A DNA stretch of 64,000 bases, from contig JAZRAG010000075.1 of assembly GCA_045634445.1 (NCBI GenBank), positions 7,782-71,781 of the forward strand. Reading direction: 5' to 3'. Below the pieces are notes generated by a model. The model did not search any database. It worked only from the letters and a program-made list of their open reading frames with translations, and was not told the origin of the DNA. Made by a program: the position numbers and the translations under genes. This DNA is from Candidatus Spyradenecus sp. (GTDB lineage Bacteria > Verrucomicrobiota > Kiritimatiellia > RFP12 > DVOR01). Below, piece by piece: positions 7,924-64,000 of the stretch. The number at the start of each line of letters is the position of its first letter. Positions within the stretch are counted from its first letter, which is position 1.

Positions 7924-9165
7924 ATGGCACTTATGAAGTTGAAAGCATTTTCTTTATTTGCGATGGCACTTTTGGCATGTTCGGCAACGGCATGGGCGAA
8001 TTCTACGCCTGTGATTGATGTGAATGTGCAGGGTGTGGCGCGTCAATCGTTATCCTTGACGGACGTCGCGCCGAGTGGGGCGGGTGGCCAGACCTTTTTG
8101 TCGACGTTGCAGAATGACTTGCAGCGTTGCGGTTGGTATCGTTTGGCTCCGAATGGCCAGGTGAAGGTGGGCGGTTCTGTAGCAGGTGCTGCAGGCGTAA
8201 CGGAAGCCCTTTCTGTGACGTGGCCTGGGAAGCGTTTTGCGTGGAATCGTGCGGCTGTGGATACCGATCAGGCGCGCCGTCATGCACACGAATTGGCAGA
8301 TGCCATCGTGAATGCTACGACGGGTGAAAAGGGTATCGCTCAGACGAAGTTTGCATTGGTTCATCAGTCTGGTACGCGTCAGTCGGGTCAGGCTATTCAA
8401 GACCTCTACATCTGCGATTACGATGGGCAGAACCTCAAGCGCGTGACCAATGATGGTTCGCCGATTGTGGGTCCGCGTTGGGGCGTGGATGGTTATTCTG
8501 TCTTTTTCACGAGCTATCGTTTAGGGTATGCCACCGTTTTCCGCGTGGATACTCGCACGGGTGCAGTGGAGCGTTTGGCCAACTTTCGTGGGTTGAGCAC
8601 GGGTGCAGTGCCTTCTCCTACGAATCCGAACCAGTTGGCAATCATCCTCTCTCACCAAGGCAATCCCGAATTGTACGTGATGGATATCCGTACGAAGCAG
8701 TTGCAGCGCATGACGCGCACGCCTTTGGCCGCAGAAGCCAGCCCTTGCTGGTCGCCTGATGGTAAGCGCATCTGCTACGTCTCTGACGTTTCGAAGTCTC
8801 CTCAGCTTTACATTGTGGATGTCGCCACGGCACAGAGCCGTCGTCTTACGCTCAAGGGCGGTGAAAGCGTCCAGCCCGATTGGAGCAAGAACGGCATCGT
8901 CTTCGCTACCCGCCGTGGCGCACCGTACCGAATTGCTGTTATTGATCCGGATGCAGGCGAACGCTCCTTGCGTTTCTTGACGCCGGTAAACGAACAGTAT
9001 GAATCCCCCTCCTGGGCGCCAGACGGCCGTCATGTGTTGGCTGCGCGTACACAGGGTAGACAGTCGTCCATTTGGGTGCTGGACGCTGCCGAAAAGGGCG
9101 CGGCACCTTACAAACCTTTCTCTTCGAGCAAGGGTCAGTGGTTGAGCCCTGCTTGGAGTCGATAA
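7924..9165 (+). CDS. tolB: Tol-Pal system beta-propeller protein TolB
   Basis: Signal peptide; N-terminal TolB domain plus repeated WD40-like propeller blades (SPDG.., LYV.D motifs); directly followed by pal. Confidence 0.82.
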   Translation: MALMKLKAFSLFAMALLACSATAWANSTPVIDVNVQGVARQSLSLTDVAPSGAGGQTFLSTLQNDLQRCGWYRLAPNGQVKVGGSVAGAAGVTEALSVTWPGKRFAWNRAAVDTDQARRHAHELADAIVNATTGEKGIAQTKFALVHQSGTRQSGQAIQDLYICDYDGQNLKRVTNDGSPIVGPRWGVDGYSVFFTSYRLGYATVFRVDTRTGAVERLANFRGLSTGAVPSPTNPNQLAIILSHQGNPELYVMDIRTKQLQRMTRTPLAAEASPCWSPDGKRICYVSDVSKSPQLYIVDVATAQSRRLTLKGGESVQPDWSKNGIVFATRRGAPYRIAVIDPDAGERSLRFLTPVNEQYESPSWAPDGRHVLAARTQGRQSSIWVLDAAEKGAAPYKPFSSSKGQWLSPAWSR

Positions 9166-9193
9166 CCCTAATCAACACCATAGGAAAAACATC

Positions 9194-9760
9194 ATGCGTA
9201 CAACATTCCTCTTAACTCTACTTCTCGCAGTAGCATTTGTGTTCACGGGTTGCGCTCGTAAGTCTCGCAACGCAGCTGGCGGTGCTGACGACTTTGACAG
9301 CGCTGCAACGTTCGCTGGCGACGGTGCATTCATCGACCCCAACGGCGCAAACTTTGACCCCAATGATCCGAATGCAGGCGCTTTCGACACTGGTAAGTTT
9401 GAAGACACCCGCACTCGCGTGACAGATGCAGGCTTGGAAGCGCTCTACTTCTCCTTCGACTCTTACATGCTTCCTCCGGAAGAACTCGCTAAGGCAGAAG
9501 CTGCAGCTCAGTATCTCTTGAACAACCCCTCTCACGTGATGATCCTCGAAGGTCACTGCGACGAACGTGGTTCCAACGAATACAATCTCTCCCTCTCCGA
9601 ACAGCGTGCAATCGGCGTGCGTGACTACATGACCTCCTTGGGCATCGATGGCGCTCGCATTCAGACCCGTGCATTCGGTGAAGATAAGCCTGCTGTTCCT
9701 GGCACGGACGAATCTGCGCACAGCTTGAATCGTCGCGCGGAATTCGTTCCTTACAAGTAA
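9194..9760 (+). CDS. pal: peptidoglycan-associated lipoprotein (OmpA family)
   Basis: Lipobox VFTGC; C-terminal OmpA-like domain (EGHCDERGSNEYNLSLSEQRA...NRRAEFV). Confidence 0.85.
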   Translation: MRTTFLLTLLLAVAFVFTGCARKSRNAAGGADDFDSAATFAGDGAFIDPNGANFDPNDPNAGAFDTGKFEDTRTRVTDAGLEALYFSFDSYMLPPEELAKAEAAAQYLLNNPSHVMILEGHCDERGSNEYNLSLSEQRAIGVRDYMTSLGIDGARIQTRAFGEDKPAVPGTDESAHSLNRRAEFVPYK

Positions 9761-47457: not shown

Positions 47458-47493
47458 GGTTTTCCCTAAGGATTTGAAACAGACGGATACTTT

Positions 47494-49179
47494 ATGGAAC
47501 GTATTTTAACACTTAATATCGGCGCGACGCGTCTTGCGCTTGCCGAGTTTGAGGTCAGGGCCGGTCGCGGCCCCGGCCTCTTGCGCTATGCTTTTGGCGA
47601 CTTGCCAGATGGTAGCACGGACAATCCAACCGCTTTTGCAATTGAAGTGGAGCAAGTCCTTCGTGGCATGATGGTGATGTCGGGCATTCGCCCCGGCCGC
47701 ATCCATGTGGCACTCTCTGGACAGATGGCATTCCCGCGCTTCATTAAGGTGCTTGCAGACAGTCCTGAAAAGATGGATGAACAAATCCGTTTCGAGCAGG
47801 AGCAGGCTGCACCCTTCCCCTTGACCGAAGCTATCTTCTCACACGCATTGGTCGGTGAGCCCGATGTCGGTGAACAGCATGTGATGATCATCGCTTCTCG
47901 TGAAGCGCTTGTTTCTTCCGTGACGCGTGCACTGTTGAATATGGGCTGCGAACCCGATGTGGTAGATGTTGCTCCGATTGCGCTCTACAACGCTGTGCGC
48001 TTTAACTATCCTGAAATGGATGGTTGCACCCTTGTTGTGGATATTGGTGCACGCTGCACAAACTTGGTCTTTGTGGAGCAGGATCGCATCTTCTATCGTT
48101 CGATTCCTGTCGCGGGCAATACGATTACTGCAGAAATCGCCAAGACCTTCGGTATCACCCCTGAAGAAGCTGAAGCCTTCAAGTGCGAACAGGGTATTGT
48201 GGCACAAGGTGGCGCATTTGCAGTAGATGATCCCGATGTGGACCGTCTCTCCAAGGTGATTCGTAATGTCATGACGCGTTTGAACGCAGAAGTGGCACGT
48301 TCAATCTCCTTCTATCGTAGCCAGCAGGGCGGTAGCGCACCCTCGCAGATGTTGCTCACAGGTGCCTCCTCGCAGTTGCCTTACATGCAGAACTTCTTTG
48401 AAGAAAAACTGCAGATTGCGGTTGACTTCTTGAACCCCTTCCAGACTGTGGCATTCCCCAAGCACGTGGATGCAGAACAGTTTGGCCATGACGCCTTCTC
48501 CTTGCCCGTATTGGTGGGCTTGGCCTTGCGTCGCGGCTTGACCTGCCCAGTGGAAATCAACTTGGTTTCCCAGGAAATCGTAAATCGCAAGATTTTCCGT
48601 CGTCGTTTGCCCTTCCTCGGCCTCGCAGCAGTGGGTATGGTCGCGACATTGGGCATTTGGTGGCTCTTTGTGAACAACCTCAAGAACTCTTACGAAACGC
48701 ATCAAGAAAACTTGGCATCTCGTATTAGTGACTATCAGGACCAAAAGGATCGTTACGATCGCGTAGATAAGAAGGCTAAGACTGCAGAAGCTCGTGCCGC
48801 CGCTTATCGTGCGTTGATGAAGCGCCGTGGTCAGTGGTTGGACATGATGGTGGCTATTGATGACGCCGTGCCCAATGGTCTCTGGGTGACAAGCATGAAG
48901 GCTCGTCGTCAAGACAACGTCTTACAGGGCGTGGACCTCACCGTTTCTGCTTGGAAGGATCTTGAGCCGCGTTTGGTAGAAAAGGGTAAAACCATCGCAG
49001 AAACCATTGCTAGCCGTCTTGCAACACAAGAAGTCTTCGTGGATGACGCAAAGGAAATCACAATCAGCAAAATCAATCAGAGCGTTGATTGGATGACCTC
49101 CTTTGACCTCACCGCTAAGCTTAAAGGTGTGGAAGAAGCAGCAGCTAAGACGAACAACAAGCGTCGCACCCGGAGGTAA
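47494..49179 (+). CDS. pilM: type IV pilus assembly protein PilM (actin-like ATPase fold) fused to a PilN-like TM + coiled-coil C-terminal region
   Basis: PilM pattern LNIGATRLALAE...VVDIGARCTNLVFVE...LTGASSQLP; TM FLGLAAVGMVATLGIWWLFVNNL at ~aa 385 followed by charged helical segment. Confidence 0.75.
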   Translation: MERILTLNIGATRLALAEFEVRAGRGPGLLRYAFGDLPDGSTDNPTAFAIEVEQVLRGMMVMSGIRPGRIHVALSGQMAFPRFIKVLADSPEKMDEQIRFEQEQAAPFPLTEAIFSHALVGEPDVGEQHVMIIASREALVSSVTRALLNMGCEPDVVDVAPIALYNAVRFNYPEMDGCTLVVDIGARCTNLVFVEQDRIFYRSIPVAGNTITAEIAKTFGITPEEAEAFKCEQGIVAQGGAFAVDDPDVDRLSKVIRNVMTRLNAEVARSISFYRSQQGGSAPSQMLLTGASSQLPYMQNFFEEKLQIAVDFLNPFQTVAFPKHVDAEQFGHDAFSLPVLVGLALRRGLTCPVEINLVSQEIVNRKIFRRRLPFLGLAAVGMVATLGIWWLFVNNLKNSYETHQENLASRISDYQDQKDRYDRVDKKAKTAEARAAAYRALMKRRGQWLDMMVAIDDAVPNGLWVTSMKARRQDNVLQGVDLTVSAWKDLEPRLVEKGKTIAETIASRLATQEVFVDDAKEITISKINQSVDWMTSFDLTAKLKGVEEAAAKTNNKRRTRR

Positions 49180-49186
49180 GTAATTT

Positions 49187-50287
49187 ATGGATCCTAAACA
49201 AAAACTCATCTTCGGAATTGTAGCAGGCGCTTGCACTGCTGCAATCATCGCGCTTGCAGCGTTGCTCTTTGGGCAAATCGGAGCGAAGAACGAAGCAAAA
49301 GAAGCGCGCGATAATGCCGCATCTGAAATTCGCGGCTACTACTCTGAAGCCATCTACCCTTCGAAGGCCAATCGTGATATCCGTGAACAGGATACGAAGA
49401 CCTACACTGAAGTGGCAGAAGCCGCACGAGCTTTACTCGCAAAGCCTTTGGAATATCCCAAGGGAGAATCCCCCTCGCAATTCGTGACGCGCGTGGCTGA
49501 CACCATTCACGCATTGGATGCGCGCAAGAATGCTTCCCGAGTGGAAATCTTTGATGGCATTGCCAAAAACAAGAATGCTACGCCCGCAGAGCAGGGGATG
49601 GATTACTCCTTCGGCCGCTATGTGCAGCAGGGTGAATTGCCTAAGGATACCGATGTGCCGCGTTTGGCTCATCAGTTCGCAGTGATTGAACACGTCTGCG
49701 ACATCCTTTTGGATGCAGGTGCATTGGACATCACCAAGGTCACACGTGAAATGTTCGACACCGCAGCAAAGCCTGTGCAAGAAGATAAGAATGCACGTCG
49801 CACGACGCGTCGCTCCAAGGCTAAGGAAGAACCTGTTGCAACCACAGGTGTGCAGCTCCCTGATGAACTCGCTAAGGATGGCGTCACCGCAGAGGCGTTC
49901 ACCATAACCTTCCGTGCGCAGTATGCAACCATCGCGAAAGTAATGAATACCTTGGCCAAGGATTCCCTCTTTGTCGTGGTAACGGATGTCTCCTTTAATA
50001 ATCCTATGGACTTGCGTACGCGTGTTGCCGACATGGTGAAGCGTCGTGAATCTGCTCGCGCGACCGCTGCACGTCGTAATCGCAATCGTGCCGCAGAAGA
50101 AAATGCAGAACCCGTTAAGGAAGTCGCACTCTTTGAAACTGCAGCACCTGCAGAGCGCTTGGTTACCGACCCCGAAAACGCGATGCCGATGGAAGTCTCC
50201 ATTTCGTTTGAAGTTTATTCGGTGCCTCCCGCTGAAGAGCCTGAAGCCGAAACCGCCGAAACCGATTCGGCCAAAACTGCAGAATAA
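49187..50287 (+). CDS. bitopic membrane protein, Amuc_1100-like / PilO-like
   Basis: N-terminal TM LIFGIVAGACTAAIIALAALLF; segment TFRAQYATIAKVMNTLAKDSLFVVVTDVSFNN resembles (from memory) Amuc_1100 AFQGDRESVLKAMNAITGMQDYLFTVNSIRIRN. Confidence 0.55.
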   Translation: MDPKQKLIFGIVAGACTAAIIALAALLFGQIGAKNEAKEARDNAASEIRGYYSEAIYPSKANRDIREQDTKTYTEVAEAARALLAKPLEYPKGESPSQFVTRVADTIHALDARKNASRVEIFDGIAKNKNATPAEQGMDYSFGRYVQQGELPKDTDVPRLAHQFAVIEHVCDILLDAGALDITKVTREMFDTAAKPVQEDKNARRTTRRSKAKEEPVATTGVQLPDELAKDGVTAEAFTITFRAQYATIAKVMNTLAKDSLFVVVTDVSFNNPMDLRTRVADMVKRRESARATAARRNRNRAAEENAEPVKEVALFETAAPAERLVTDPENAMPMEVSISFEVYSVPPAEEPEAETAETDSAKTAE

Positions 50288-50305
50288 GGAAGGAATCACG
50301 CAATT

Positions 50306-51445
50306 ATGGCAAACCAACTTCCTCCATTTTTAAAGCACTACGATCGCCTCGCCGCGGTCTTAGTCTTGGTGGCATTGTTGATCTCCCTCGCCTTCCTCGT
50401 GCTGAGGGGTGTTAGCCTCCAGCAAGAAGAGCGCGAATACGATGCAGACCTTGAAGCAGGTCAGCCCTCAACCTCTCAAGTGAAGCCTGCTGATAACGCA
50501 GCAGACCTCGCTTTGATTGCTGTGGTGGCAAATCCGCCCGCTGAAAAGTTGCTCGCACTTCAGGACAATCCTGAACTTGCAAACATGGGTACGCCTGAAC
50601 GCCGCTTGCTCTGCGTGAAGTGCACCAAGCCCATCGTTTGGGGTGCAGAAAAGTGCACCTTCTGCGCAGCCGTTCAGCCTAAGGAAGAAAAGATTGACCT
50701 CGCAGCGGTTGACTCCGATGGTGACGGCATTCCTGATATTGAAGAATTGAAGCTTAAGCTCAATCCGCAGGACGGCAATGACGTTGACTTGGATAATGAT
50801 GCCGACGGCTTCACGAATATTGAAGAATATTTGGCAAAGACCGATATGAACGATGCTGCAAGCCACCCTGGCTATGAAGGTCGTTTTGCATTGAAGTCAA
50901 TTGAAGGCACGAAGTTGCAAATTCGCGCAATCGATAAGATGCAGCTCCCCTCCACGAAGGATGCAGACGGAAAGAGTGTTTCTCACTACGCAGTCACCTT
51001 CGTTTCTGTGAATGCAGATGGTGTGATGGGTACCAATCCTGTTCGCGCTAAGGATGGCGAAGAAATTATGTCTAAGGCAGGCACCAGTACTGGTTATCGC
51101 TTTGTTCGCTACAACGAGCTTCCTAAGAAGAAGATTGAAGTTGGCGAACACAAGCAACAGCGCTTTGTTGACGTTTCGGAAGTTGAACTTGTGCGTGTGG
51201 CTGACAATAAGAAAATTGTCACCATTATGTATGACAAAAACAATCCCGAATGGCCTGGCGATCCGCTACTTGAACAGCGCGCAACTTTGGAATTTGACAT
51301 CCCTGGCGTGAAAAACGTGGTTGTTGCTCCTGGTGGTAAATTCACCGTAAAGGGCGAAAAATACACGGTTTTGAGCGTTGATGCCGAGAAAAAAGTCGTA
51401 ACCATTCAGAAAAATGCGACTGGCGCGAAATTTGACTTGAAATAA
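50306..51445 (+). CDS. bitopic membrane protein with zinc-ribbon and DxDxDG calcium-binding motifs (positional analogue of Amuc_1099; PilP-like role possible)
   Basis: TM LAAVLVLVALLISLAFLVL; CVKC...CTFC; DSDGDGIPDIEE and DLDNDADGFTNIEEY; beta-rich C-terminus. Confidence 0.55.
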   Translation: MANQLPPFLKHYDRLAAVLVLVALLISLAFLVLRGVSLQQEEREYDADLEAGQPSTSQVKPADNAADLALIAVVANPPAEKLLALQDNPELANMGTPERRLLCVKCTKPIVWGAEKCTFCAAVQPKEEKIDLAAVDSDGDGIPDIEELKLKLNPQDGNDVDLDNDADGFTNIEEYLAKTDMNDAASHPGYEGRFALKSIEGTKLQIRAIDKMQLPSTKDADGKSVSHYAVTFVSVNADGVMGTNPVRAKDGEEIMSKAGTSTGYRFVRYNELPKKKIEVGEHKQQRFVDVSEVELVRVADNKKIVTIMYDKNNPEWPGDPLLEQRATLEFDIPGVKNVVVAPGGKFTVKGEKYTVLSVDAEKKVVTIQKNATGAKFDLK

Positions 51446-51519
51446 TTCTTTTATTGGGTTATACTTACCTCACGATTTGGAATGGGTAAAGAGCCCAACT
51501 AACTGCGGAGAAACGTGTT

Positions 51520-54500
51520 ATGACACAATTTGTACGCTTTGCCATGATCGGCGCATTAGCCGCTGGGGCATCAGTATGCGCCATTGCGCAAGACGATGAC
51601 AGTCTTGACGCCCTCTTGGGGGACCTCGTAGAGGATGTCGCGATTGAAGAAGACGCTGTAGCTGTCGACGAAATCGCTGACGAACCTGCTGAAGAAGTCG
51701 CCGAAGTGCCTGCCGAAGAAGCAGTCGAAGAGGTCGCTGAAGAAGTTGCTGCCGTCGACGAAGATCCTATCGCAGATGAACCTGCAGAAGACGTCGCTGA
51801 AGTCCCCGCAGAAGAAGCGGTGGAAGAAGTTGCTGAAGTTGCAGATGAACCTGCTGAAGAGGTCGTGGAAGAAGTCGCCGAAGCAGACGAACCCGCAGCC
51901 GAAGTCGAAGAAGTGATCGCCGAAGCAGACGAGCCCGCAGAAGAAGTTGCGGAAGAAGTCGCTGAAGTTGAAGCTGACGCAGACGAAGCAGTCGAAGTGG
52001 TTGAAGTGGCAGACGAGCCCGCAGAAGAAGCTGTGGAAGAAGTCGCTGTCGCAGACATGGAAACTGAAATCAAAGAAATCGCGGAAGCTCCTGCAGACGA
52101 ACCCGCCGAAGGTTTGCTCGCTGGCGTCAACACCTCCGTTGAACCGATTGAAGAACTTACCGAAGAAGAACGCAAGTATAATGATCTTGCGCTCTTGATG
52201 GAACTCAAGAATCGTGGCTTGGATAACCATGCATATGCTTGCTTGGCTAAGGCTCGTGAATTGATGACCACGCCTCCGCAGCCTGGCAAGGCCTTCAATC
52301 AGTACGCTGATGCTATTAAGATGTATAAGGACGCTCAGGTTTACTTCCGTCAGCGCGAAGAAAACCTCCCTCTCCGCAATGAGTGTGACATCGGCATCCG
52401 CGAAGCTGAATATCGTCAGGCAAAGGTTCGCTTTGAAGAAGGTAACTTCGTTGAAGCTCTTGAAATGGCTCAGAATGTCCAGCTCAGCGGCCATCCTCAG
52501 GGCGCAGCTTTGATTGAAATCATTCAGGACGAAATGAATAAGCCGGTGGAAGTTCGCCCGAACCCCATCCTTCCTGAATACGCTAAGGAAGAATATCAGC
52601 GCAATCGTTTGGCCATTCAGGAACGTATGCGCCGTGCAACCGTTTACTTCCAGCTCGCTAAGTATCGTGAAGCAAACGATCAGTTGGAACTCATTCTCCG
52701 TGATGACCCCAACAATGAAGAAGCAATTAGCTTGCGTGCTCGCGTGAATCGTCGTCATGCAGATCGCAATCGTCAGTTGAAGTATTCCACACACGATGAA
52801 ATGATTAGCCAGGTGGAAGCTAACTGGACTCCCCTTGGTGCTCTCGCCCGCAACTCTGAAGAACTCTACGCTCCTGTAGAATCTAAGGGTGCCACCACGA
52901 AGGTGAACAAGGAGGGCGAAAAGGAAGAAGCAGTCGTGATGGCTAAGTTGCAGTACATCCGCTTGCCTGAATTCTCTATCCGTCCGCCGAGCACGCTCGC
53001 TGACGCAGTTGCGCTCTTCGCTGAACTCTCTAAGGATTACGACAAGCCCGAACTTCCTCCGGAAGAAAAGGGTATCGCTTTCGTGTTGAACATGGGCAAA
53101 AAGCCCGCGGCAGCTGCGGAAGAAACCGAAGATGATCCGTTCGCATCTGAATCGGAATCCTCCTCTGGCCTTCCTCCGATTGCCTCCATCTCCATGCCTT
53201 GGGTGACCCTCAAGGAAGCATTGGACATGGTTTGCGAAGTGACTGGCTCCAAGTACGTGATTAAGGGTAAAATCGTGATGATCGTTCCCGCAACACACGT
53301 TGACGGTATCATGGTCACGCGTTCCTATAACGTGATGGGCGGCTTGGTTGAAAAGCTCAGCCAAGTGAACAGTGAAATGGGTTCTTCTAGCGATGACAGC
53401 GATTGGGGTTCTGACTCCGAAAGTAGCTTCACTGCACCCTCTACCGACGCGGCATCCTTGAAGGCCTTCTTCACTGACCTCGGCGTGCCCTTTGATGGTG
53501 GTGCTCGAATCGCCTACTTGCCGACCATCGGTAAGCTCCGTGTTACAAATACTCCTGAAAACTTGGCAATCCTCGAAGGCGTCCTTGAAGACCTCAACGT
53601 GACTCCGTCTCAGATTGAAGTTGAAGCTCGCTTCGTTGAAGTAAGCCAGGAAGACTTGAACTCCCTCGGTTTTGAATGGGGCTTGAATGGTGACGTTGTT
53701 GGCACCATCGGTTCTGGTATCGACTGGGCTGACTCTGTGATTTCTGGCAATGCTAACCGTGGTCTCGCCGCAGGCGGTACTGGTGCAAATGGCAATGTCT
53801 TCCGCCCTGGACGCGGTGGCACGGGTGATGCAAACGTAGCTGTTCATGGTGGCTCTCTTAATAATGGTATGCGCTTCCTTGGCGATGGTAATGCATATGC
53901 AAATCGTATTAACCTCGCAGGTAGCACCATTGCTCCCGATGATACCTTTGCCAGCTTCTCCGCTGTCTTTGGTCGCGTGGACATGACGATGGTCCTCCAC
54001 ATGTTGGCTCAGCGCTCCGATACGGATATGCTCTCCAGCCCCAAGGTGCTCGCACGCCCTGGCCAGGAAGCACTCATCCGCGTGGTGACCGAACACATTT
54101 ATCCTACCGAATTCGATATTACCGAACTCGAAGAAGCTGAACAGAACTGGAACGGTAATAACGGTGGTAGCAGCCTTGCTGGAGGCTTGACCGGTGGCCT
54201 CATCGGTGGTAATAATGTGCAGATGAATGCACCGCCTGTGAAGTTCGCTGTTGAACCTCAGTCCTTCGAAAAGACGGACGTGGGTGTCTCCTTGCAGGTT
54301 GTCCCTGAACTTTCTCAGGAAGGTCAGATGATCAACATGTTGGTCAACCCCAAGGTTGTTGAATATCTCGGTGACTTTGACTACGGTATGAAGGTGCCTT
54401 ACATCCAGTACGGCATGACCGCAGGTGCAGTTTCTAGCGCTCAGGTTGAATACTACAACGTAGAAATGCCTCAGCCGAAGTTCCATGTTCGTGAAATCAA

Positions 54501-54786
54501 TACCTATATCTCTGTCTACAACGGCTCTACGGTTGTGATGGGTGGCTTGATTACCGAAACGCGTAAGTCCTTCGAAGATAAGGTTCCGTTCTTGGGTGAC
54601 CTTCCCTTCATTGGCTTCCTCTTCCGCTCTAAGGGCGAATTCAGCGAAAAGCGCAACCTCCTCGTCTTCCTTACCGCTCGTTTGGTTGACCCTGCAGGCC
54701 GCCCGTTGAAGACCGCTACCGATGGTCGTACAGGCAATGCTGCAATGGATACCGCAGCAGAAACCATGGACTCCATCGCAGAGTAA
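51520..54786 (+). CDS. pilQ: secretin (PilQ/GspD family), 1088 aa, with signal peptide, ~170-aa acidic repeat region, TPR-like helical region and Gly/Asn-rich insert
   Basis: C-terminal secretin domain (VPFLGDLPFIGFLFRSKGEFSEKRNLLVFLTARLVDPAGRP); signal MTQFVRFAMIGALAAGASVCAIAQ. Confidence 0.85.
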   Translation: MTQFVRFAMIGALAAGASVCAIAQDDDSLDALLGDLVEDVAIEEDAVAVDEIADEPAEEVAEVPAEEAVEEVAEEVAAVDEDPIADEPAEDVAEVPAEEAVEEVAEVADEPAEEVVEEVAEADEPAAEVEEVIAEADEPAEEVAEEVAEVEADADEAVEVVEVADEPAEEAVEEVAVADMETEIKEIAEAPADEPAEGLLAGVNTSVEPIEELTEEERKYNDLALLMELKNRGLDNHAYACLAKARELMTTPPQPGKAFNQYADAIKMYKDAQVYFRQREENLPLRNECDIGIREAEYRQAKVRFEEGNFVEALEMAQNVQLSGHPQGAALIEIIQDEMNKPVEVRPNPILPEYAKEEYQRNRLAIQERMRRATVYFQLAKYREANDQLELILRDDPNNEEAISLRARVNRRHADRNRQLKYSTHDEMISQVEANWTPLGALARNSEELYAPVESKGATTKVNKEGEKEEAVVMAKLQYIRLPEFSIRPPSTLADAVALFAELSKDYDKPELPPEEKGIAFVLNMGKKPAAAAEETEDDPFASESESSSGLPPIASISMPWVTLKEALDMVCEVTGSKYVIKGKIVMIVPATHVDGIMVTRSYNVMGGLVEKLSQVNSEMGSSSDDSDWGSDSESSFTAPSTDAASLKAFFTDLGVPFDGGARIAYLPTIGKLRVTNTPENLAILEGVLEDLNVTPSQIEVEARFVEVSQEDLNSLGFEWGLNGDVVGTIGSGIDWADSVISGNANRGLAAGGTGANGNVFRPGRGGTGDANVAVHGGSLNNGMRFLGDGNAYANRINLAGSTIAPDDTFASFSAVFGRVDMTMVLHMLAQRSDTDMLSSPKVLARPGQEALIRVVTEHIYPTEFDITELEEAEQNWNGNNGGSSLAGGLTGGLIGGNNVQMNAPPVKFAVEPQSFEKTDVGVSLQVVPELSQEGQMINMLVNPKVVEYLGDFDYGMKVPYIQYGMTAGAVSSAQVEYYNVEMPQPKFHVREINTYISVYNGSTVVMGGLITETRKSFEDKVPFLGDLPFIGFLFRSKGEFSEKRNLLVFLTARLVDPAGRPLKTATDGRTGNAAMDTAAETMDSIAE
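51640..52110 (+). repeat. degenerate in-frame tandem repeats encoding (A/V)EE(V/A)AE..DEPAEE units
   Basis: Repeated gaagaagtcgc / gacgaacctgc blocks; about 10 units of 14-18 codons. Confidence 0.7.
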
Positions 54787-54805
54787 GGTTGAGAAAACTA
54801 AAAGA

Positions 54806-54838
54806 AAACGCGGCATGAAAGTGCCGCGTTTCTTTTTA
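54806..54838 (+). terminator. intrinsic terminator of the secretin operon (aacgcggca/tgccgcgtt + TCTTTTTATT)
   Basis: 9-bp GC-rich stem, 6-nt loop, T-run. Confidence 0.8.
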
Positions 54839-55308
54839 TTAAAGACTTGGTTTGATATATCACACATTTAACTAGCAATAAAGCAGAGGATTGGAAACTG
54901 TTCGAATAGATTGAGATATGATAATTTTAAGAGAGACACAATCGTAGAGAAGGGCATAAAGTGTGATCTTTAATTATAGCCAGAGTTAAAAACATCTTTT
55001 AGAAGTGGGGTATATCGGAGTGGTTTGTGATAGAGAAGAGGGTATAAGAATAAAAGATTTCTAAGGTGTAGGTAACGCGGATAAATGTAGAAATCTTGGG
55101 TGTGAATCGTTACTGAATGTGGTAGTTAACACTGAAAGTTTGGCAACATTCTCGTAGTGATGTAATCTTTAAGGGATAACGAATATTGTGATGTCATTAA
55201 AGGAAATTTAAGCAGGGTTCTGTTAGGTGTTATTTATAAAAGAGGGGCACTCTTTAATTTTGCTATAAATAAAGCGTTAAATAAATTAAAGAAAGTTTAA
55301 AAAAGTAC

Positions 55309-58830: not shown

Positions 58831-61404
58831 TTATGCTTCAGGGTTGTCAACAGGCTGCTCTACAGCTGCTTCAGGAGCTTCGGGTGCAACTTCGTTCGCA
58901 GGCGTTTCAGAAGGCGCTGCAGTGGCAGGCGTTTCTTCTTCGGCTTCTGCGGGTGCGAGCGAGAAGCTTGCGAGCGTTGCATCGCCCTTGAGCTTGATGA
59001 AGTTGACACCTGCTGCGCTACGGCCCATCGTGCGGACGTCGCTGACGTTTGTGCGCATCATGATGCCAGAAGTGGTGAGCAATACCATGGTTTCGTCGCC
59101 CTTAACGGTGGCGATGCCAATGAGCTTACCATTCTTTTCATTGCCAATCGGGTTACCAATGACGCCCTTCGAGCCACGATGTGTGACGCGGAAGTCATCA
59201 AAGGCGCTACGCTTGCCGCGGCCGTTTTCGGTGACGAAGAGGAGGTCTGCTTCGGGTTCTTCCACTGCGAAGCCGCAGACGCTATCGCCTTCAATCTTGA
59301 ACTTCATGCCGCAGACGCCCATGGCGCCACGTCCCACGCGACGGACTTCATCAATATAGAAGGCGTTCACGAGGCCTTCGCGAGAGGCCATAAAGACCTT
59401 GTCGCCAGGCTTGGTGAGGGCAATCTTAACAATTGCATTGCCTTCTTCAATATTGATTGCGATGATGCCGCGACGGTTGACATTGCGGTAATCCGAGAGG
59501 GCTGTGCGCTTGATGGTACCATCGGTAAGCACGAAGGTGATGTCGAGATCTTCGTCAAAGCCGTGAATCGGGAGGATTTCAACGATACGCTCGTCCTTTT
59601 GGAGGCCTTCAAGCACGTTGATAATCGGCTGACCCGCGTGGGCGCGTTCCTGTTCGCGAATTGAGAAGGCTTCCTTCTTGTAGACGCGGCCAGTATTCGT
59701 GAAGAAGAGGAGGTCATCGTGTGCGTAGGGTACATAGATGCGTTCAATGAAGTCTTCGTCCTTAATCTTCACACCTGTGAAGCCCGTGCCGCCGCGTGCT
59801 TGTGCACGATAGTCAGAGAGCTTGGTACGCTTCACGTAACCACGGTGGGAGAGCGTGATGACGGTGGGGACATTCGGCGTGATGGCGCGGATGTCAATTT
59901 CGCCCTTTGCTGCTTCAATCGTGGTAAGGCGGTCGCCTTCCTTCGTGTACTGAGCCTTGATTTCTTCAAGGTCTGCCTTGATGAGGGCGAAGACCTTTTC
60001 AGGATTTTCAAGGATGGACTGCAATTCTTCAATGCGAGCGCGCAATTCGGACTGTTCATTGAGCAACTTGTCGCGTTCCAGGCCTGTCAACTGACGCAAG
60101 CGCATTTCCAAGATTGCCTGCACCTGCGGGTCAGAGAAGCCGAAGCGTTCGCAGAGGCGCGTACGAGCCTCGTCATTCGTCTTAGAGTCGCGAATGATGT
60201 GAATAACTTCGTCAAGGTTGTCCTGTGCGATAAGCAAGCCATCCACGATGTGAATGCGTTCCTGTGCTTTACGCAATTCAAAGCGAGCACGACGCGTGTG
60301 CACATCGAAACGGTGATCCACGTAGCACTGGAAGAAATCGCGTAACGTCATACGCTTCGGGCGACCGTGATCCAATGCGATCATATTTGCGCCAAAGGTG
60401 GTCTGCAAGTCAGAGTGCTTGTAAAGCTGGTTGAGAATGACTTCGCCGTCATCAGCATTCTGCTTGAGTTCAATCACCACACGGATGCCGTCCTTAAGGC
60501 TCGTTTCATCGCGGATATCAGAGATGCCCTTGATGACGCCATCCTTGACGAGCTCTGCCATCTTAGAGACCATGGCAGCCTTGTTCACCATATATGGAAT
60601 CGAGGTGATGATAATGCGCTGACGCTTACCTTCTTGCTCAACCGTAGCCTCGCCACGCATCGTAATTGAGCCGCGGCCGAGCTTGTACATTTCTTCAATG
60701 CCCTTGAAACCGCAAATCAACGCGCCCGTGGGGAAGTCTGGGCCCTTGACATAGGTCATCAAGTCATCAATCGTCGCGGTAGGATTATCAATGAAGTAAA
60801 TTAAGCCATCGCAGAGCTCGCGGAGGTTGTGCGGCGGGATGTTCGTAGCCATACCCACTGCAATACCCTGCGAACCATTGAGGAGGAGGTTCGGAAGCTT
60901 GGAGGGAAGGACGCGCGGCTCTGTTTCATTGCCGTCATAGTTCGGCATGAATTCCACAGTATCCTTATCGATATCTGCGAGCATTTCATTGGAAATCTTC
61001 GCCATACGGCATTCAGTATAACGCGCAGCTGCCGCGCCATCGCCGTCGAGTGTACCGAAGTTACCATGGCCATCTACGAGCGGCACGCGCAAGCTAAACC
61101 ACTGCGCCATACGCACCAACGTGTCGTAGATAGAGCTATCGCCGTGCGGGTGATATTTACCCATCACTTCACCGACCACACGGGCGGACTTCATGTACTT
61201 GGTATTGTAGAAATTCTTCATTGCGTACATCGCATACAACACACGACGATGCACAGGCTTGAAACCATCGCGCGCATCAGGCAATGCACGAGACACAATG
61301 ACACTCATGGAGTAATCAATGTAGGAGTTCTTCATTTCCTCTTCTACATTGATTGAAGTTAAACGTGTATCTTTGGCAGGGGCCAACTGAACTTCTTCGT
61401 CCAT
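58831..61404 (-). CDS. gyrA: DNA gyrase subunit A
   Basis: Active-site region [31 protein letters not shown] with catalytic Tyr; C-terminal beta-pinwheel and acidic tail. Confidence 0.95.
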
Positions 61405-61440
61405 CCTATAAATCCTTTCAATAATGGTATATTATATCAC

Positions 61441-61472
61441 ATATATTACGCGTACGCGTATGCGCGCGTGCG
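61441..61472. promoter_or_regulatory. 26-nt perfectly alternating pyrimidine-purine tract (tacgcgtacgcgtatgcgcgcgtgcg) in gyrA upstream region
   Basis: Visible in sequence 37-68 bp upstream of gyrA ATG; flanked by AT-rich -10-like gatataat on minus strand. Confidence 0.5.
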
Positions 61473-61564
61473 AAAGACGCAAGAAAAGTGATAAAAATAA
61501 GCAATAAAATCGTCTTTAAACGCAAAGAACGCACGATTCTTTGCGTCACAATTGCGCGCAAAAA

Positions 61565-61670
61565 AGGCCCTCTTTTAAAGAAGGCTTGAATTGTACTTCA
61601 AAACAACCCTTATTGAACGTCAAAAGAGGTTGTTTTCAACATCAAAACAACCTCTTTTCAAAACCGTTTT
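61565..61670. repeat. copy of dispersed intergenic repeat family including a perfect 15-bp/7-nt-loop hairpin (61623-61659)
   Basis: aaaagaggttgtttt-caacatc-aaaacaacctctttt; shares TTTTAAAGAAGGCTTG with 7683-7698. Confidence 0.8.
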
Positions 61671-61826
61671 CACCATCACCTCAAAACGCCTCAAAAAAGA
61701 CCTCCTCTAATCCTCGTAAAATGCCGAAATAACAGCGTTTTAGAAGATTTTTCAGATTCCTAAATAAAAGAAACAGCCGGACGTATTAACGGCCGACTGT
61801 TACTTTGTAAAGAGATGTGAAGCAGA

Positions 61827-63713
61827 TTAGAGATCGAGACCTTCAATCGTCACTTCATTAGCATCTTCCACCTTCACTTCCGCTTCCGCTTCAATCTTTG
61901 AAAGCGCGCCCTTTGCGAGCGGGCTGTTACGATAGTAAACCATGAGCTGGAGCGCCGTAAGGCAGTTGCCAAGGATCATACCCTTCATTGCAGGATTCTT
62001 GCCAGAATGCCAACCCGCGAGCGTACAAACGTCACGATTGATAAGGTCCTTAATAGGATAACCCATGCGGGTGCCATTCTTTGTGCCCTTATCCTTCATG
62101 AGACGTTCTTCGTCAGGAATGGCCTTAGGCTCACCCTTGAACTGCGCAGAAGAATTCTGCACGGGCCAATAGGTGATGTACTGCGGACGACCATTGTGGT
62201 CCACATAACCAGACTTATCTGCGGGAATGTTGATTGCAGCAGCGTTGTAAAGACGCTTCTGAACTTCATTCCAACGAAGCCATGCGGGATGTTTTTCACC
62301 CTGGTTAAAACGCACTTGAGAGAGGTAATAGCAGTAATACTGAGAAGACTTACCGATTGCAGGAGACTTTTCCTTCTTCGGCGGCGCATCAGTATACTTA
62401 AACGTGGGATCCCACGTTTCCATGTACTTGAGCGACTTCTTACAAAGTTCCGTATCACCTTCGTCCAACATCTGGAGAATCAATACGCACGGAGCGGTCA
62501 AACCCCAATAGCTATTGAATTCACGCGGCTTATTCTTCTTATCCAAATAGCCGAATGCACCAGCCTGAGGACCATCCGTGTGCAAACACTCCTTGATACC
62601 CTTAGAAGCCTTCTTAAGTGCAGTCACAATCTGGCCCTTAAGCTTCTGGTCACCAATGTGAGCGAGCTTAGCAGCCTTAAGTGCCTGAACAGCCCAGCTA
62701 GCATACGAAGTATCGGTAATCGGACACTTAGCATCGAGGTTGTAATACCAACCGCCACTTGCGTTCTGACCATCGATAATCGGCTTAACAGCGCGTTCAA
62801 CCACAGGCTTGAGGTCAGGAATGCGCGTCATTGCATAAGCTTCAGAAAGTGCGTACACAGCGACCAACTGAGTGTAGTTGGTAGCGTTACGGGACTTAAA
62901 GTAGCCGACTTCACCACGACGGAAATTATGACCATCATAACCACGCTTCGAGTTCGAGTGGTCCTGCTTAGCCTCTTCTTCCGTCTTGATTTGGTCAGCG
63001 ATCATCGCGCGAATCGCCTTTTCAACCGTAGAGCCGAATTCTTCGCTCTGGCCCGGTAATTCGTTGTGAGCGAGGTAACAGAGAAGTGCGAGAGACGTAA
63101 GACCTGCGTCATCTTCCCACAAACCATTGTAACCCTGCTTCAACTTGAGCCAACGCAAGAAGCCGTAAACGAGCTTTTCAGTAGAAGCTGCACCGAACTT
63201 ACCAATCTTAGCACCACGCAAACCAGGATCACGAGAGCCGTGCACACCCTTCAACACCACAGGGGAGGGGGTGAGAGCCACCGAGTCCATCGGAGCTGGC
63301 TGGGGAGACTGCTCAGCAGAAGTTGTCGGAGGAGCATCGATATCCACGACCACATCCGTTTCAACCACTTCATCCAATTCCGGAGGTTGTTCCGGTGGTG
63401 GTGGTTCTTCAGGAGCGAGTTCTTCAGCAGCTTCAGGTTCAATAATCTGCGTTTCAATTGCCGGCGGCTTTTCATCTGGTACAAACTTGACCAAACTCAT
63501 TACAGCCACTGCAGTAAGCACGATAACAAACGCAGCAATCGGAGCGCCGAGACGCTGGAATTCAATCATAGCCTGCTTGAATTCCAAAGAGTCCTTCGGC
63601 TTACCGAAGCCCTTAAACATGTCTGCTAAACGTTTGAAATAGGAGCGTTCACCTTGCTCAAACATCTTGAGCAATTCGTCCTTTTCATAGTTATTATTTA
63701 AATCATCCGCCAT
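61827..63713 (-). CDS. TonB/TolA-like anchored protein: N-terminal TM + Pro/Glu-rich spacer + C-terminal alpha/alpha-toroid (prenyltransferase/terpene-cyclase-like repeat) domain
   Basis: TM IAAFVIVLTAVAVMSLV; spacer EPEAAEELAPEEPPPPEQPPELDEVV; C-domain with repeated aromatic/Gly motifs (GGWYYNL, SYASWAVQAL); lies immediately downstream of exbD/tolR. Confidence 0.5.
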   Translation of the reverse strand: MADDLNNNYEKDELLKMFEQGERSYFKRLADMFKGFGKPKDSLEFKQAMIEFQRLGAPIAAFVIVLTAVAVMSLVKFVPDEKPPAIETQIIEPEAAEELAPEEPPPPEQPPELDEVVETDVVVDIDAPPTTSAEQSPQPAPMDSVALTPSPVVLKGVHGSRDPGLRGAKIGKFGAASTEKLVYGFLRWLKLKQGYNGLWEDDAGLTSLALLCYLAHNELPGQSEEFGSTVEKAIRAMIADQIKTEEEAKQDHSNSKRGYDGHNFRRGEVGYFKSRNATNYTQLVAVYALSEAYAMTRIPDLKPVVERAVKPIIDGQNASGGWYYNLDAKCPITDTSYASWAVQALKAAKLAHIGDQKLKGQIVTALKKASKGIKECLHTDGPQAGAFGYLDKKNKPREFNSYWGLTAPCVLILQMLDEGDTELCKKSLKYMETWDPTFKYTDAPPKKEKSPAIGKSSQYYCYYLSQVRFNQGEKHPAWLRWNEVQKRLYNAAAINIPADKSGYVDHNGRPQYITYWPVQNSSAQFKGEPKAIPDEERLMKDKGTKNGTRMGYPIKDLINRDVCTLAGWHSGKNPAMKGMILGNCLTALQLMVYYRNSPLAKGALSKIEAEAEVKVEDANEVTIEGLDL

Positions 63714-63731
63714 AATAGACCCTTTCGTGCC

Positions 63732-64000
63732 TTAGAGGCTGAAGATTGCGAGATTGGTCATCCCGTACTTGTTGCAGAGGTCAAGCGCCTTTACAAGCAA
63801 GGAGTGAGGAGAATCCTTCGTGCAGCGCAAGAGCACCGTAGAACCCTTGTTGTTACGAGCTGCACGCTTGATTTCAGAATCAAGCTGACGATACGAAACA
63901 GGCGTCTTATTGACGAGGAAGCCTTCGCCACCCTGATTCGGATTGTAAATGTCAATGGTCAACATTTCAATCTGTTCAGCGGGTGCAGCCTTAGAGTCAG
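63732..64000 (-). CDS. exbD: biopolymer transport protein ExbD/TolR (C-terminal part; N-terminus beyond window end)
   Basis: C-terminal periplasmic domain pattern ...VLLRCTKDSPHSLLVKALDLCNKYGMTNLAIFSL; frame stays open to base 64000. Confidence 0.6.
   Translation of the reverse strand, partial: DSKAAPAEQIEMLTIDIYNPNQGGEGFLVNKTPVSYRQLDSEIKRAARNNKGSTVLLRCTKDSPHSLLVKALDLCNKYGMTNLAIFSL

What the first reader, a model, noticed from the sequence alone, without database searches (positions are those of the whole stretch)
61827..64000. ExbD/TolR followed by a TonB/TolA-like anchored protein whose C-terminal domain is an alpha/alpha toroid
The 628-aa protein has the TonB/TolA layout (cytoplasmic N-tail, one TM, Pro/Glu-rich periplasmic spacer) and sits in the tolA/tonB position after exbD. 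Its C-terminal ~430 aa look like prenyltransferase/squalene-cyclase-type helical repeats, not a TonB C-terminal domain. tolB-pal lie 54 kb away at 7924-9760 with no tolQRA beside them. A proton-motive-force-coupled transducer with a toroid cargo-binding domain would be an uncommon variant.
Basis: partly seen in the sequence, partly recalled or inferred. Interest (0 to 1): 0.55.

Follow-up and report, generated by a model that had tools for sequence, protein, structure and literature searches.

The report
Toroid-headed partner of ExbBD-like motor
A gut PVC-group bacterium encodes, right after proton-driven ExbB/ExbD-type motor genes, a membrane-anchored protein laid out like the force-transmitting proteins TonB and TolA but ending in a helical ring (toroid) domain, and it belongs to a conserved, apparently undescribed family whose head can also be a sugar-binding PA14 domain.

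Summary
ORF 61827-63713 (-) encodes a 628-aa protein with this layout:
- a conserved 56-aa cytoplasmic tail;
- one transmembrane helix;
- a short strand-prone "motor-box"-like motif;
- a roughly 100-aa Pro/Glu-rich disordered linker;
- a 420-aa (alpha/alpha)6 toroid;
- a conserved acidic C-terminal tail.

It starts 18 nt after a truncated ExbD gene (63732->64000).

In relatives the cluster is: large TPR protein, small TPR protein, ExbB/TolQ-like, ExbD, ExbD, then this protein. Of 67 related loci with enough upstream DNA, 59 show the motor genes directly upstream, down to about 30% identity.

The N-terminal anchor is a small, lineage-restricted module: 277 hits among 1.84 billion representative proteins. 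It occurs with only two heads, the toroid or, in the same operon slot, a PA14 lectin fold.

It is not a TonB or TolA family member. It has no TonB C-terminal domain and no Ser-His motif in the membrane helix. It is probably not a terpene cyclase either, because DxDD is not conserved.

The best reading is a force transducer for a Tol/Ton-like motor. It parallels the vWA-headed transducers proposed in 2025 for PVC bacteria, but has a different anchor and different heads. The ligand and the cellular role are unknown. Candidates are outer-envelope maintenance (a TolA substitute) or glycan binding.

The parts
63732..64000 (-). 3' part (88 codons plus stop) of the second ExbD/TolR-like gene of the motor operon. 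It is truncated by the window edge.
   Evidence: Pfam PF02472, E 1.3e-8, above the cut-off. It is 97% identical to L001 ExbD2 residues 51-138.
61827..63713 (-). Gene for the 628-aa toroid-headed anchored protein, the putative force transducer. Its ATG lies 18 nt after the ExbD stop codon.
   Evidence: The family has at least 699 members. The position after ExbB-ExbD-ExbD is conserved.
63546..63713 (-). Residues 1-56: conserved cytoplasmic N-terminal module with predicted helices. Invariant residues are G35, K46, A48 and R54.
   Evidence: Alignments A1 and A2. AlphaFold2 helices 8-21, 25-36 and 43-74. The module is restricted to 277 representatives among 1.84e9 proteins.
63489..63545 (-). Residues 57-75: the single transmembrane helix, acting as a signal anchor. 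It begins at the invariant Pro58 and contains no His or SHLS motif.
   Evidence: Hydropathy and charge counts, and the His count of 1 in 149.
63438..63458 (-). Residues 86-92 (IETQIIE), flanked by P83-P84 and P93: a motor-box / D-box-like strand motif 11 residues after the membrane helix.
   Evidence: The pattern is found in 55% of 161 family members, against 5% of shuffled sequences. The remaining members have a similar V/I/T-rich strand. The motif definition comes from PMC10907165 and PMC12204202.
63219..63479 (-). Residues 79-165: the Pro/Glu/Asp-rich disordered periplasmic spacer. It includes the conserved pre-head motif SPxP...SPV(V/I)xK..xGSRxPGxRGA at residues 136-170.
   Evidence: pLDDT is below 50 for residues 76-165. 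Composition and linker lengths are 99-172 aa, median 104. Invariant residues are S136, P139, S150, G164 and G167.
61929..63188 (-). Residues 176-595: the (alpha/alpha)6 toroid head with QW-like repeats. It carries a clade-specific insertion of about 80 aa, at roughly residues 495-575.
61830..61928 (-). Residues 596-628: a disordered acidic tail ending in the conserved terminal peptide ...EVTIEGLDL. The PA14-type relatives carry a similar tail (DVSVEVDI).
7924..9165 (+). TolB-like beta-propeller gene, with no motor genes beside it. It is a possible downstream partner; this is inference only.
   Evidence: PD40 repeats. TIGR02800 scores 240 bits, below the 343-bit cut-off. No TolB or Pal lies within 10 kb of the cluster in any of the 88 fetched loci L001-L088.
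9194..9760 (+). Pal-like OmpA-family lipoprotein gene next to the TolB-like gene.
   Evidence: PF00691. TIGR02802 scores 104 bits, below the 125-bit cut-off.

Best explanation
The 628-aa protein is the force-transducing (TonB/TolA-analogous) subunit of a lineage-specific proton-motive-force motor encoded by a six-gene cluster. The cluster comprises two secreted TPR proteins, an ExbB/TolQ-like protein, two different ExbD/TolR-like proteins, and this protein.

The proposed mechanism is as follows.
1. The conserved N-terminal module (cytoplasmic helices plus the membrane helix) docks on the ExbB pentamer.
2. The short strand just outside the membrane (IETQIIE) is captured by the periplasmic ExbD dimer, as the TonB D-box is.
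3. The roughly 100-residue Pro/Glu-rich linker spans the periplasm.
4. The toroid head, together with its conserved acidic C-terminal peptide, engages a target in the outer envelope, on which the motor then pulls.

Shown here: the domain anatomy, the fold classes, the tight and old gene linkage, and the interchangeability of heads (toroid or PA14 lectin) on one anchor.

Inferred: physical coupling to the motor, the direction of force, and the target. My preferred guess for the role is housekeeping outer-envelope maintenance, as a substitute for the TolA that this lineage seems to lack. The head would recognise a glycan or an outer-membrane or TPR partner.
For: - **Gene linkage.**
  - The ATG lies 18 nt after the ExbD stop codon.
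  - ExbB plus two ExbD genes lie directly upstream in 59 of 67 related loci with enough DNA; two more have a glycosyltransferase gene inserted.
  - All five upstream genes are present in 48 of 52 loci.
  - The linkage holds at 30-35% identity.
- **Real motor.** The ExbB proteins keep the GTV threonine and the IP motif. Both ExbD proteins keep the transmembrane Asp (MIDVVF).
- **TonB/TolA-like anatomy.** The topology is N-in, there is a strand-prone motif just after the membrane helix (55% against 5% in shuffles), and the Pro/Glu-rich linker has a median length of 104 aa.
- **Modularity.**
  - The anchor module is found only in this family: 277 of 1.84e9 representatives.
  - It carries either a toroid or a PA14 fold (Foldseek hit 6m8m, E 4.6e-8).
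  - The PA14 form occupies the same operon slot.
  - Extra paralogues with the same anchor occur in tandem or elsewhere in the genome, as multiple TonBs do.
[quoted passage not shown] That work started from a Kiritimatiellota species lacking TolA and TonB (PMC12204202).
- **Tol-like flavour.** The best NCBIfam hits are tolQ and tolR, and a YbgF/CpoB-type TPR for the large TPR protein. tolB-pal are orphaned in the window.
Against: - The Ser-X3-His motif is absent. In TonB and TolA it contacts ExbB or TolQ, and the vWA transducers retain it (PMC12215075 and PMC12204202). Only 1 of 149 family members has any His near the helix. Docking on the motor would therefore have to work differently, and it has not been demonstrated.
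- The toroid resembles enzymes (2-epimerases, glycoside hydrolases, cyclases) and has many invariant polar and aromatic residues, so a catalytic role is not excluded.
- TolB-Pal is never within 10 kb of the cluster, and a toroid cannot bind TolB the way TolA domain III does.
- Other Kiritimatiellota reportedly have TonB-domain proteins and TonB-dependent transporters (PMC10880615), so the lineage is not uniformly devoid of classical transducers.
Confidence: 0.6

Rival explanations
1. It is an inner-membrane-anchored periplasmic enzyme, for example a glycan-modifying epimerase- or hydrolase-like enzyme or an isoprenoid-lipid-processing (alpha/alpha)6 enzyme. On this view it is co-transcribed with the motor but is not mechanically driven by it.
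For: - All structural neighbours of the head are enzymes or ligand-binding toroids.
- About 40 invariant residues in the toroid are rich in His, Asp, Glu, Tyr, Trp and Gln.
- Public records name the family 'terpene cyclase/mutase' or 'prenyltransferase/squalene oxidase repeat' protein.
Against: - The class II cyclase DxDD motif is not conserved: it occurs in 6 of 50 sequences, at non-homologous columns. No thioester CGEQ motif is present.
- The Pfam score of the window protein is far below the cut-off.
- The head can be replaced by a non-catalytic PA14 lectin fold in the same slot.
- A 100-aa extended spacer and a motor-box-like strand are unnecessary for a membrane-proximal enzyme.
Confidence: 0.15
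2. It is a true TonB replacement for nutrient import. The toroid or PA14 head would bind polysaccharide substrates or an outer-membrane transporter, and the motor would power glycan uptake in these glycan-foraging bacteria.
For: - PA14 heads are lectin-like, and the toroid's best structural matches are carbohydrate-active barrels.
- The window encodes host-glycan hydrolases: NAGLU and GH95.
- Two orphan paralogues sit next to glycoside hydrolases (L005 and L086).
- K. glycovorans was reported to lack TonB-dependent polysaccharide uptake genes (PMC5148204).
Against: - Most orphan paralogues lie among housekeeping genes: SecY, ECF sigma factor, rRNA methyltransferases and RNase HII.
- The main cluster is never embedded in a polysaccharide-utilisation locus in the loci examined.
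- No outer-membrane transporter gene is linked to it.
Confidence: 0.15
3. It is a static anchoring or scaffold subunit. On this view it tethers the motor or the TPR proteins to peptidoglycan or to the outer membrane and transmits no force, in the way peptidoglycan-binding stator accessories do.
For: - The cluster always includes two secreted TPR proteins with BamD/YbgF-like repeats.
- The conserved C-terminal acidic peptide could be a TPR-binding tail (inference).
Against: - A long flexible linker is a poor rigid tether.
- The conserved strand motif sits in the position of the TonB D-box.
- ExbD proteins already carry the peptidoglycan-proximal domain.
Confidence: 0.1

Closest known systems
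[quoted passage not shown] 2025, Mol Biol Evol, PMC12204202)
   Same: - It is a bitopic inner-membrane protein with a transmembrane helix, a motor box, a disordered or Pro-rich linker of about 100 residues, and a non-TonB globular head.
[quoted passage not shown]
- It was found in the same broad lineage: the paper's starting point was Tichowtungia, a Kiritimatiellota species.
   Different: - The head is an (alpha/alpha)6 toroid or a PA14 fold, not vWA.
- The membrane helix lacks the SHLS/His motif that the vWA transducers retain.
- There is a conserved 56-aa cytoplasmic module instead.
- Two TPR genes precede the motor.
- The paper's main text does not mention prenyl- or toroid-type heads.
TonB (ExbB-ExbD-TonB system)
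   Same: - It is genetically linked to exbB and exbD.
- The topology is N-in with a single transmembrane helix.
- A D-box-like strand follows the helix, and the spacer is Pro-rich.
- Several paralogues appear to share one motor.
   Different: - There is no TonB C-terminal domain.
- There is no Ser16/His20-type motif.
- The cytoplasmic N-terminus is long and conserved.
- No TonB-dependent transporter is linked to it.
TolA (TolQRA-TolB-Pal-CpoB system)
   Same: - The motor proteins score best against the TolQ and TolR models.
- The large TPR protein carries a YbgF/CpoB-like TPR.
- TolB and Pal homologues exist in the genome without tolQRA beside them.
- The cluster has a housekeeping-like distribution.
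   Different: - There is no TolA domain III and no SHLS motif.
- There are two TolR paralogues.
- tolB-pal are unlinked: 54 kb away here, and never within 10 kb elsewhere.
Squalene-hopene cyclase / prenyltransferase beta-subunit superfamily (Pfam PF13243, PF00432)
   Same: The head has the alpha/alpha toroid fold with QW-like 'LRWLxxxQxxDGsW' repeats.
   Different: - The catalytic DxDD motif is not conserved.
- The domain is predicted to be periplasmic, on a long tether.
- The window protein is below the Pfam gathering score.

Membership tests
TonB family | C-terminal TonB_C domain (PF03544 fold) that binds Ton boxes | tested here: not met
   There is no Pfam or NCBIfam hit. The modelled C-terminal domain is an (alpha/alpha)6 toroid.
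TonB / TolA | Ser-X3-His(-X6-Leu-X3-Ser) motif in the transmembrane helix, which contacts ExbB/TolQ TM1 | tested here: not met
   The window helix (PIAAFVIVLTAVAVMSLVK) contains no His. Only 1 of 149 toroid-type and 0 of 12 PA14-type members have a His near the helix. The motif definition comes from PMC12215075.
TonB / TolA | Single N-terminal transmembrane helix, N-in, followed by a strand-prone motor box (D-box) in a disordered region | tested here: met
   The hydropathy peak is at residues 57-75, with 10 Lys/Arg before it and 2 after. IETQIIE is flanked by prolines 11 residues after the helix. The pattern occurs in 55% of members against 5% of shuffles. Binding to ExbD itself was not tested.
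TonB / TolA | Periplasm-spanning Pro-rich or helical domain II | tested here: met
   Residues 79-165 are disordered and 22% Pro, 15% Glu. The linker is 99-172 aa across the family.
TonB / TolA | Encoded with exbB-exbD or tolQ-tolR | tested here: met
   ExbD is directly upstream in the window. ExbB-ExbD-ExbD lie upstream in 59 of 67 relatives.
TolA (Tol-Pal) | Contiguous locus with tolB and pal, and a C-terminal domain III that binds the TolB N-terminus | tested here: not met
   tolB-pal lie 54 kb away and are absent from the fetched loci L001-L088. The head is not TolA-III. Interaction with TolB cannot be tested here.
vWA force transducers (PMC12204202) | [quoted passage not shown] | tested here: met
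vWA force transducers (PMC12204202) | von Willebrand A C-terminal domain and an SHLS transmembrane helix | tested here: not met
   The heads have a toroid or PA14 fold. There is no SHLS motif.
Terpene cyclase / prenyltransferase (PF13243, PF00432) | Alpha/alpha toroid with QW-type repeats | tested here: met
   The family profile matches 2sqc at E 5e-7. Foldseek hits include 8paj and 1sqc. Many homologues carry PF13243. The window protein itself is below the cut-off (11.9 bits against 26.1).
Terpene cyclase / prenyltransferase (PF13243, PF00432) | Conserved catalytic motif (class II DxDD) | tested here: not met
   DxDD occurs in 6 of 50 sequences, at non-homologous columns. D334 is the only invariant Asp.
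ExbD/TolR (upstream gene) | Pfam PF02472 above the gathering score, and a transmembrane Asp | tested here: met
   The score is 35.4 bits against a 25.4-bit cut-off. The transmembrane part lies outside the window. The 97%-identical relative has MTPMIDVVF with the Asp.

The most novel reading that the evidence does not exclude
These proteins define a third anchor type of periplasmic force transducer. It is independent of the TonB/TolA SHLS anchor and carries interchangeable glycan-recognising heads (toroid or PA14). On this reading a proton-driven motor pulls on a carbohydrate polymer (peptidoglycan, lipopolysaccharide, capsule or a substrate glycan) rather than on a protein Ton box. It would be the long-missing TolA/TonB equivalent of Kiritimatiellia-type PVC bacteria.
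Probability: 0.2. Interest if true: 0.85.

Novelty: new variant of a known kind. Interest (0 to 1): 0.6.

Why it matters
Ton and Tol motors are the only known way Gram-negative cells deliver energy to the outer envelope. Until 2025 all their transducers were thought to carry one head fold.

This family would add two more heads on a new kind of anchor, which suggests that the ExbBD/TolQR motor is a general-purpose engine with plug-in tools.

It also gives a concrete candidate for how a PVC lineage reported to lack TolA and TonB energises its outer membrane.

Finally, it would correct a misleading public annotation: hundreds of these proteins are labelled 'terpene cyclase/mutase family protein'.

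The family is well suited to experiment. It has a compact six-gene cluster, clear motifs to mutate, and two soluble heads to test for ligand binding.

Tried and rejected
- **Direct look-up.** The exact window protein is not on record in the assembly collection.
- **Pfam and NCBIfam on the window protein alone.** Only sub-threshold cyclase hits were found.
- **Link to tolB-pal.** No TolB or Pal homologue lies within 10 kb of the cluster in any fetched locus. Physical linkage is therefore rejected; a functional link remains open.
- **Polysaccharide-utilisation context for orphan paralogues.** Most are in housekeeping neighbourhoods. Only L005 and L086 lie beside glycoside hydrolases. This is not supported as a general pattern.
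- **Same anchor with TonB_C, vWA or other heads.** An exhaustive profile search found only toroid and PA14 architectures among full-length hits.
- **ExbB TM1 Ser/Trp, the TonB His-contact residues.** Alignment with E. coli ExbB and TolQ was inconclusive: the Trp38 position is Ile or Val, with Tyr or Trp one residue later.
- **Catalytic motifs.** DxDD and CGEQ are not conserved.
- **RNA and terminator scans, 61300-64000.** Nothing was significant.
- **Literature.** Searches for ExbD together with squalene cyclase, prenyltransferase or terpene cyclase terms gave no relevant paper.
- **Not possible here.** Conservation could not be mapped onto the model because coordinates are not exposed. Whole genomes could not be scanned for TonB_C or TonB-dependent transporters.
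Full report
**1. What is in the window**

On the minus strand, ORF 61827..63713 encodes 628 aa. Its ATG lies 18 nt after the stop codon of a reading frame that runs off the window edge (63732..>64000). That fragment matches Pfam ExbD above the curated cut-off (PF02472, E 1.3e-8).

The fragment is 97% identical to residues 51-138 of the second of two ExbD genes in a syntenic relative. The 628-aa protein itself is only 75% identical to its counterpart there.

Downstream, a 420-nt intergenic region is followed by gyrA, a metallophosphoesterase gene and an ABC-F ATPase gene. The same genes follow the cluster in the relative L001.

**2. Anatomy of the 628-aa protein**

An alignment of 50 homologues (A1) and an AlphaFold2 model give six parts.

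- **(i) Residues 1-56: hydrophilic cytoplasmic module.** It has predicted helices and invariant residues G35, K46, A48 and R54.
- **(ii) Residues 57-75: one hydrophobic helix.** Mean Kyte-Doolittle hydropathy is 2.54. It begins at the invariant Pro58 and contains no His. There are 10 Lys/Arg before it, against 2 Lys/Arg and 18 Asp/Glu in the 60 residues after it, so the predicted topology is N-in, C-out. A cleaved signal peptide is excluded by the long conserved N-terminal region.
- **(iii) Residues 86-92: the motif IETQIIE.** It lies eleven residues after the helix, flanked by P83-P84 and P93. This is the hydrophobic/hydrophilic alternation, bracketed by prolines, that defines the TonB D-box (PMC10907165). 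The same feature is called the 'motor box' and is found in nearly all TolA and TonB proteins (PMC12204202).
  - A strict pattern is present in 55% of 161 family members, against 5% of shuffled sequences.
  - The remaining members have a similar V/I/T-rich strand.
- **(iv) Residues 79-165: a disordered Pro/Glu/Asp-rich spacer.** It is 22% Pro and 15% Glu. From the end of the helix to the start of the head is 99-172 aa across the family, median 104. It ends in a conserved motif, SPxP...SPVxxK..xGSRxPGxRGA.
- **(v) Residues 176-595: a confidently modelled helical toroid.**
- **(vi) Residues 596-628: a disordered acidic tail.** It ends in a conserved terminal peptide, ...EVTIEGLD(D)L.

**3. The head is an alpha/alpha toroid but probably not a cyclase**

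- The family profile matches squalene-hopene cyclase chains through QW-like repeats (E 5e-7).
- Many homologues carry PF13243.
- Foldseek finds only (alpha/alpha)6 barrels: 2-epimerases, GH76, GH88, a cyclase, and C3d/C4 thioester domains. The best E-value is 8e-5 and TM-scores to the targets are 0.5-0.6. The fold class is therefore clear, but no specific family is matched.
- The class II cyclase DxDD motif and the thioester CGEQ motif are not conserved.
- The toroid has many invariant Tyr, Trp, Gln, Glu, Asp and His residues. This is compatible with either a ligand pocket or an active site.

**4. The genomic context is old and strict**

In relatives the gene order is as follows.

| Position | Gene product |
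|---|---|
| 1 | TPR protein of about 1040 aa, with a signal peptide and YbgF/CpoB- and BamD-like repeats |
| 2 | Secreted TPR protein of about 265 aa |
| 3 | ExbB/TolQ-like protein (262 aa) |
| 4 | ExbD |
| 5 | ExbD |
| 6 | Toroid protein |

- A scan of one genome per species found 411 related loci. The best 80 all come from gut, rumen or environmental PVC-group genomes assembled from metagenomes, labelled Kiritimatiellae/-ia, Lentisphaeraceae or Ca. Spyradenecus.
- Of 67 loci with at least 2.2 kb of upstream DNA, 59 have ExbB plus two ExbD genes directly upstream, with gaps of 14-186 nt in all but one locus (585 nt). Two more have a glycosyltransferase gene inserted.
- All five upstream genes are present in 48 of 52 loci.
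- The small TPR protein is itself a small family of 116 hits. Two of its three most distant members sampled lie in clusters that end in a toroid protein; the third contig ends before that position.
- The motor looks functional. The ExbB proteins keep the GTV threonine and the IP motif. Both ExbD proteins keep the transmembrane Asp.

**5. The anchor is a distinct module with swappable heads**

A profile of the first 80 residues was searched against 1.84 billion representative proteins. It found only 277 hits.

Full-length hits fall into two architectures: anchor-spacer-toroid, and anchor-spacer-beta domain. The second type comprises 12 representatives of 420-486 aa.

- The beta domain gives weak PA14/GLEYA Pfam hits.
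- Its AlphaFold2 model matches PA14 sugar-binding domains of adhesins, yeast lectins and RsgI sensors (best hit 6m8m, E 4.6e-8, TM-score 0.64). The PA14 'FDD' motif is invariant.
- One PA14-type gene occupies exactly the toroid slot after TPR-TPR-ExbB-ExbD-ExbD (L085).
- Both architectures share the invariant residues of the anchor, the post-helix strand, an 'SPSPV' motif and a similar acidic C-terminal peptide.
- Extra toroid paralogues with the same anchor occur in tandem or elsewhere in the genome. This resembles multiple TonBs sharing one motor.

**6. Comparison with what is known**

Williams-Jones et al. (2025) started from Tichowtungia aerotolerans, a Kiritimatiellota species in which they found no TolA or TonB. 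They proposed a new class of force transducers with vWA heads, SHLS-type membrane helices and motor boxes. [quoted passage not shown]

The present family fits that concept and gene context. It differs in its head (toroid or PA14) and in its anchor. The anchor has no Ser-X3-His motif, which cryo-EM shows to be the contact with ExbB or TolQ (PMC12215075).

That paper's main text does not mention toroid or prenyl-type heads. Four literature searches found no paper that links ExbD with such domains. Public records call these proteins 'terpene cyclase/mutase family protein' or 'prenyltransferase/squalene oxidase repeat-containing protein'.

I therefore do not file it as a TonB, a TolA, a vWA transducer or a terpene cyclase. 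In each case a defining feature was tested and not met. I classify it as a new variant of the force-transducer kind.

**7. Which process does it serve?**

This remains inference.

*For a Tol-like housekeeping role:*
- the best NCBIfam models for the motor genes are tolQ and tolR, and the large TPR protein matches a YbgF/CpoB-type TPR;
- the TolB-like and Pal-like genes in the window (sub-threshold but clear) have no tolQRA beside them;
- the cluster and most orphan paralogues sit among housekeeping genes.

*Against:*
- tolB-pal are never near the cluster;
- a toroid cannot bind TolB as TolA-III does.

*For a glycan-related role:*
- the alternative head has a lectin fold, and the toroid's structural neighbours are carbohydrate-active;
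- these are glycan-foraging bacteria.

There is no consistent polysaccharide-utilisation context.

The conserved C-terminal peptide and the two TPR proteins suggest a tail-TPR interaction. That is speculative.

**8. Verdict**

- My confidence that this is a motor-coupled transducer is about 0.6.
- The identity of the target is open.
- The finding is a genuine, apparently undescribed variant of a recently recognised class. It is of moderate-to-high interest to specialists in envelope energetics.

Noticed in passing
L085 10001-11356, with proteins P0150, P0152, P0201, P0159, P0169, P0216, P0264, P0244, P0157, P0239, P0240 and P0222: A second architecture shares the same N-terminal anchor, spacer and acidic C-terminal peptide but has a PA14 lectin-fold head. 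In L085 it replaces the toroid protein in the operon slot.
   Followed up: yes
window 63732-64000 compared with 61827-63713, against L001: The ExbD2 fragment is 97% identical to its counterpart in relative L001. The adjacent toroid protein is only 75% identical, so the head protein evolves much faster than the motor subunit.
   Followed up: partly
L004 9568-13404, L058, and L085 11360-13868: A MacB/FtsX-type ABC transporter pair (PF12704/PF02687 plus ABC_tran) directly follows the transducer gene in several environmental relatives. In L004 it is followed by a second toroid paralogue with a nearly identical N-terminus.
   Followed up: no
L035 8418-12906 and L060 5760-10270: An orphan toroid paralogue with no motor upstream lies directly after secY. 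It is followed by an ECF sigma factor gene and a zf-HC2 anti-sigma-like gene.
   Followed up: partly
L047 8758-9843 and L064: A GT4-type glycosyltransferase gene is inserted between the second ExbD gene and the toroid gene in two relatives.
   Followed up: partly
L003 9755-10162, L032 11680-12072 and L066 11769-12158: A third ExbD paralogue follows the toroid gene in some relatives. In L066 it is followed by another toroid paralogue.
   Followed up: no
window 61405-61826: This is an unusually long (about 420 nt), AT-richer intergenic region between the toroid gene and gyrA. It contains several hairpins and palindromes, for example around 61620-61660, and a hairpin followed by a T-run just after the stop codon (about 61761-61800). 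There was no significant Rfam match.
   Followed up: partly
window 46633-54786: PilM-like and neighbouring genes, plus a 1088-aa secretin (PF00263), point to a type IV pilus or type II secretion-like apparatus. A 1098-aa antisense ORF (51571-54867) has no Pfam match and may be spurious; this was not tested further.
   Followed up: no
window 1993-4476 and 23999-26557: An alpha-N-acetylglucosaminidase (NAGLU, GH89-type) and a GH95 fucosidase-type hydrolase are encoded here. Both are consistent with a gut bacterium that forages on host glycans.
   Followed up: no
window 7924-9165: After its signal peptide the TolB-like protein begins NSTPVIDVNVQG. This resembles the strand-forming N-terminal 'TolA box' of E. 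coli TolB as I recall it, although no TolA is evident.
   Followed up: no
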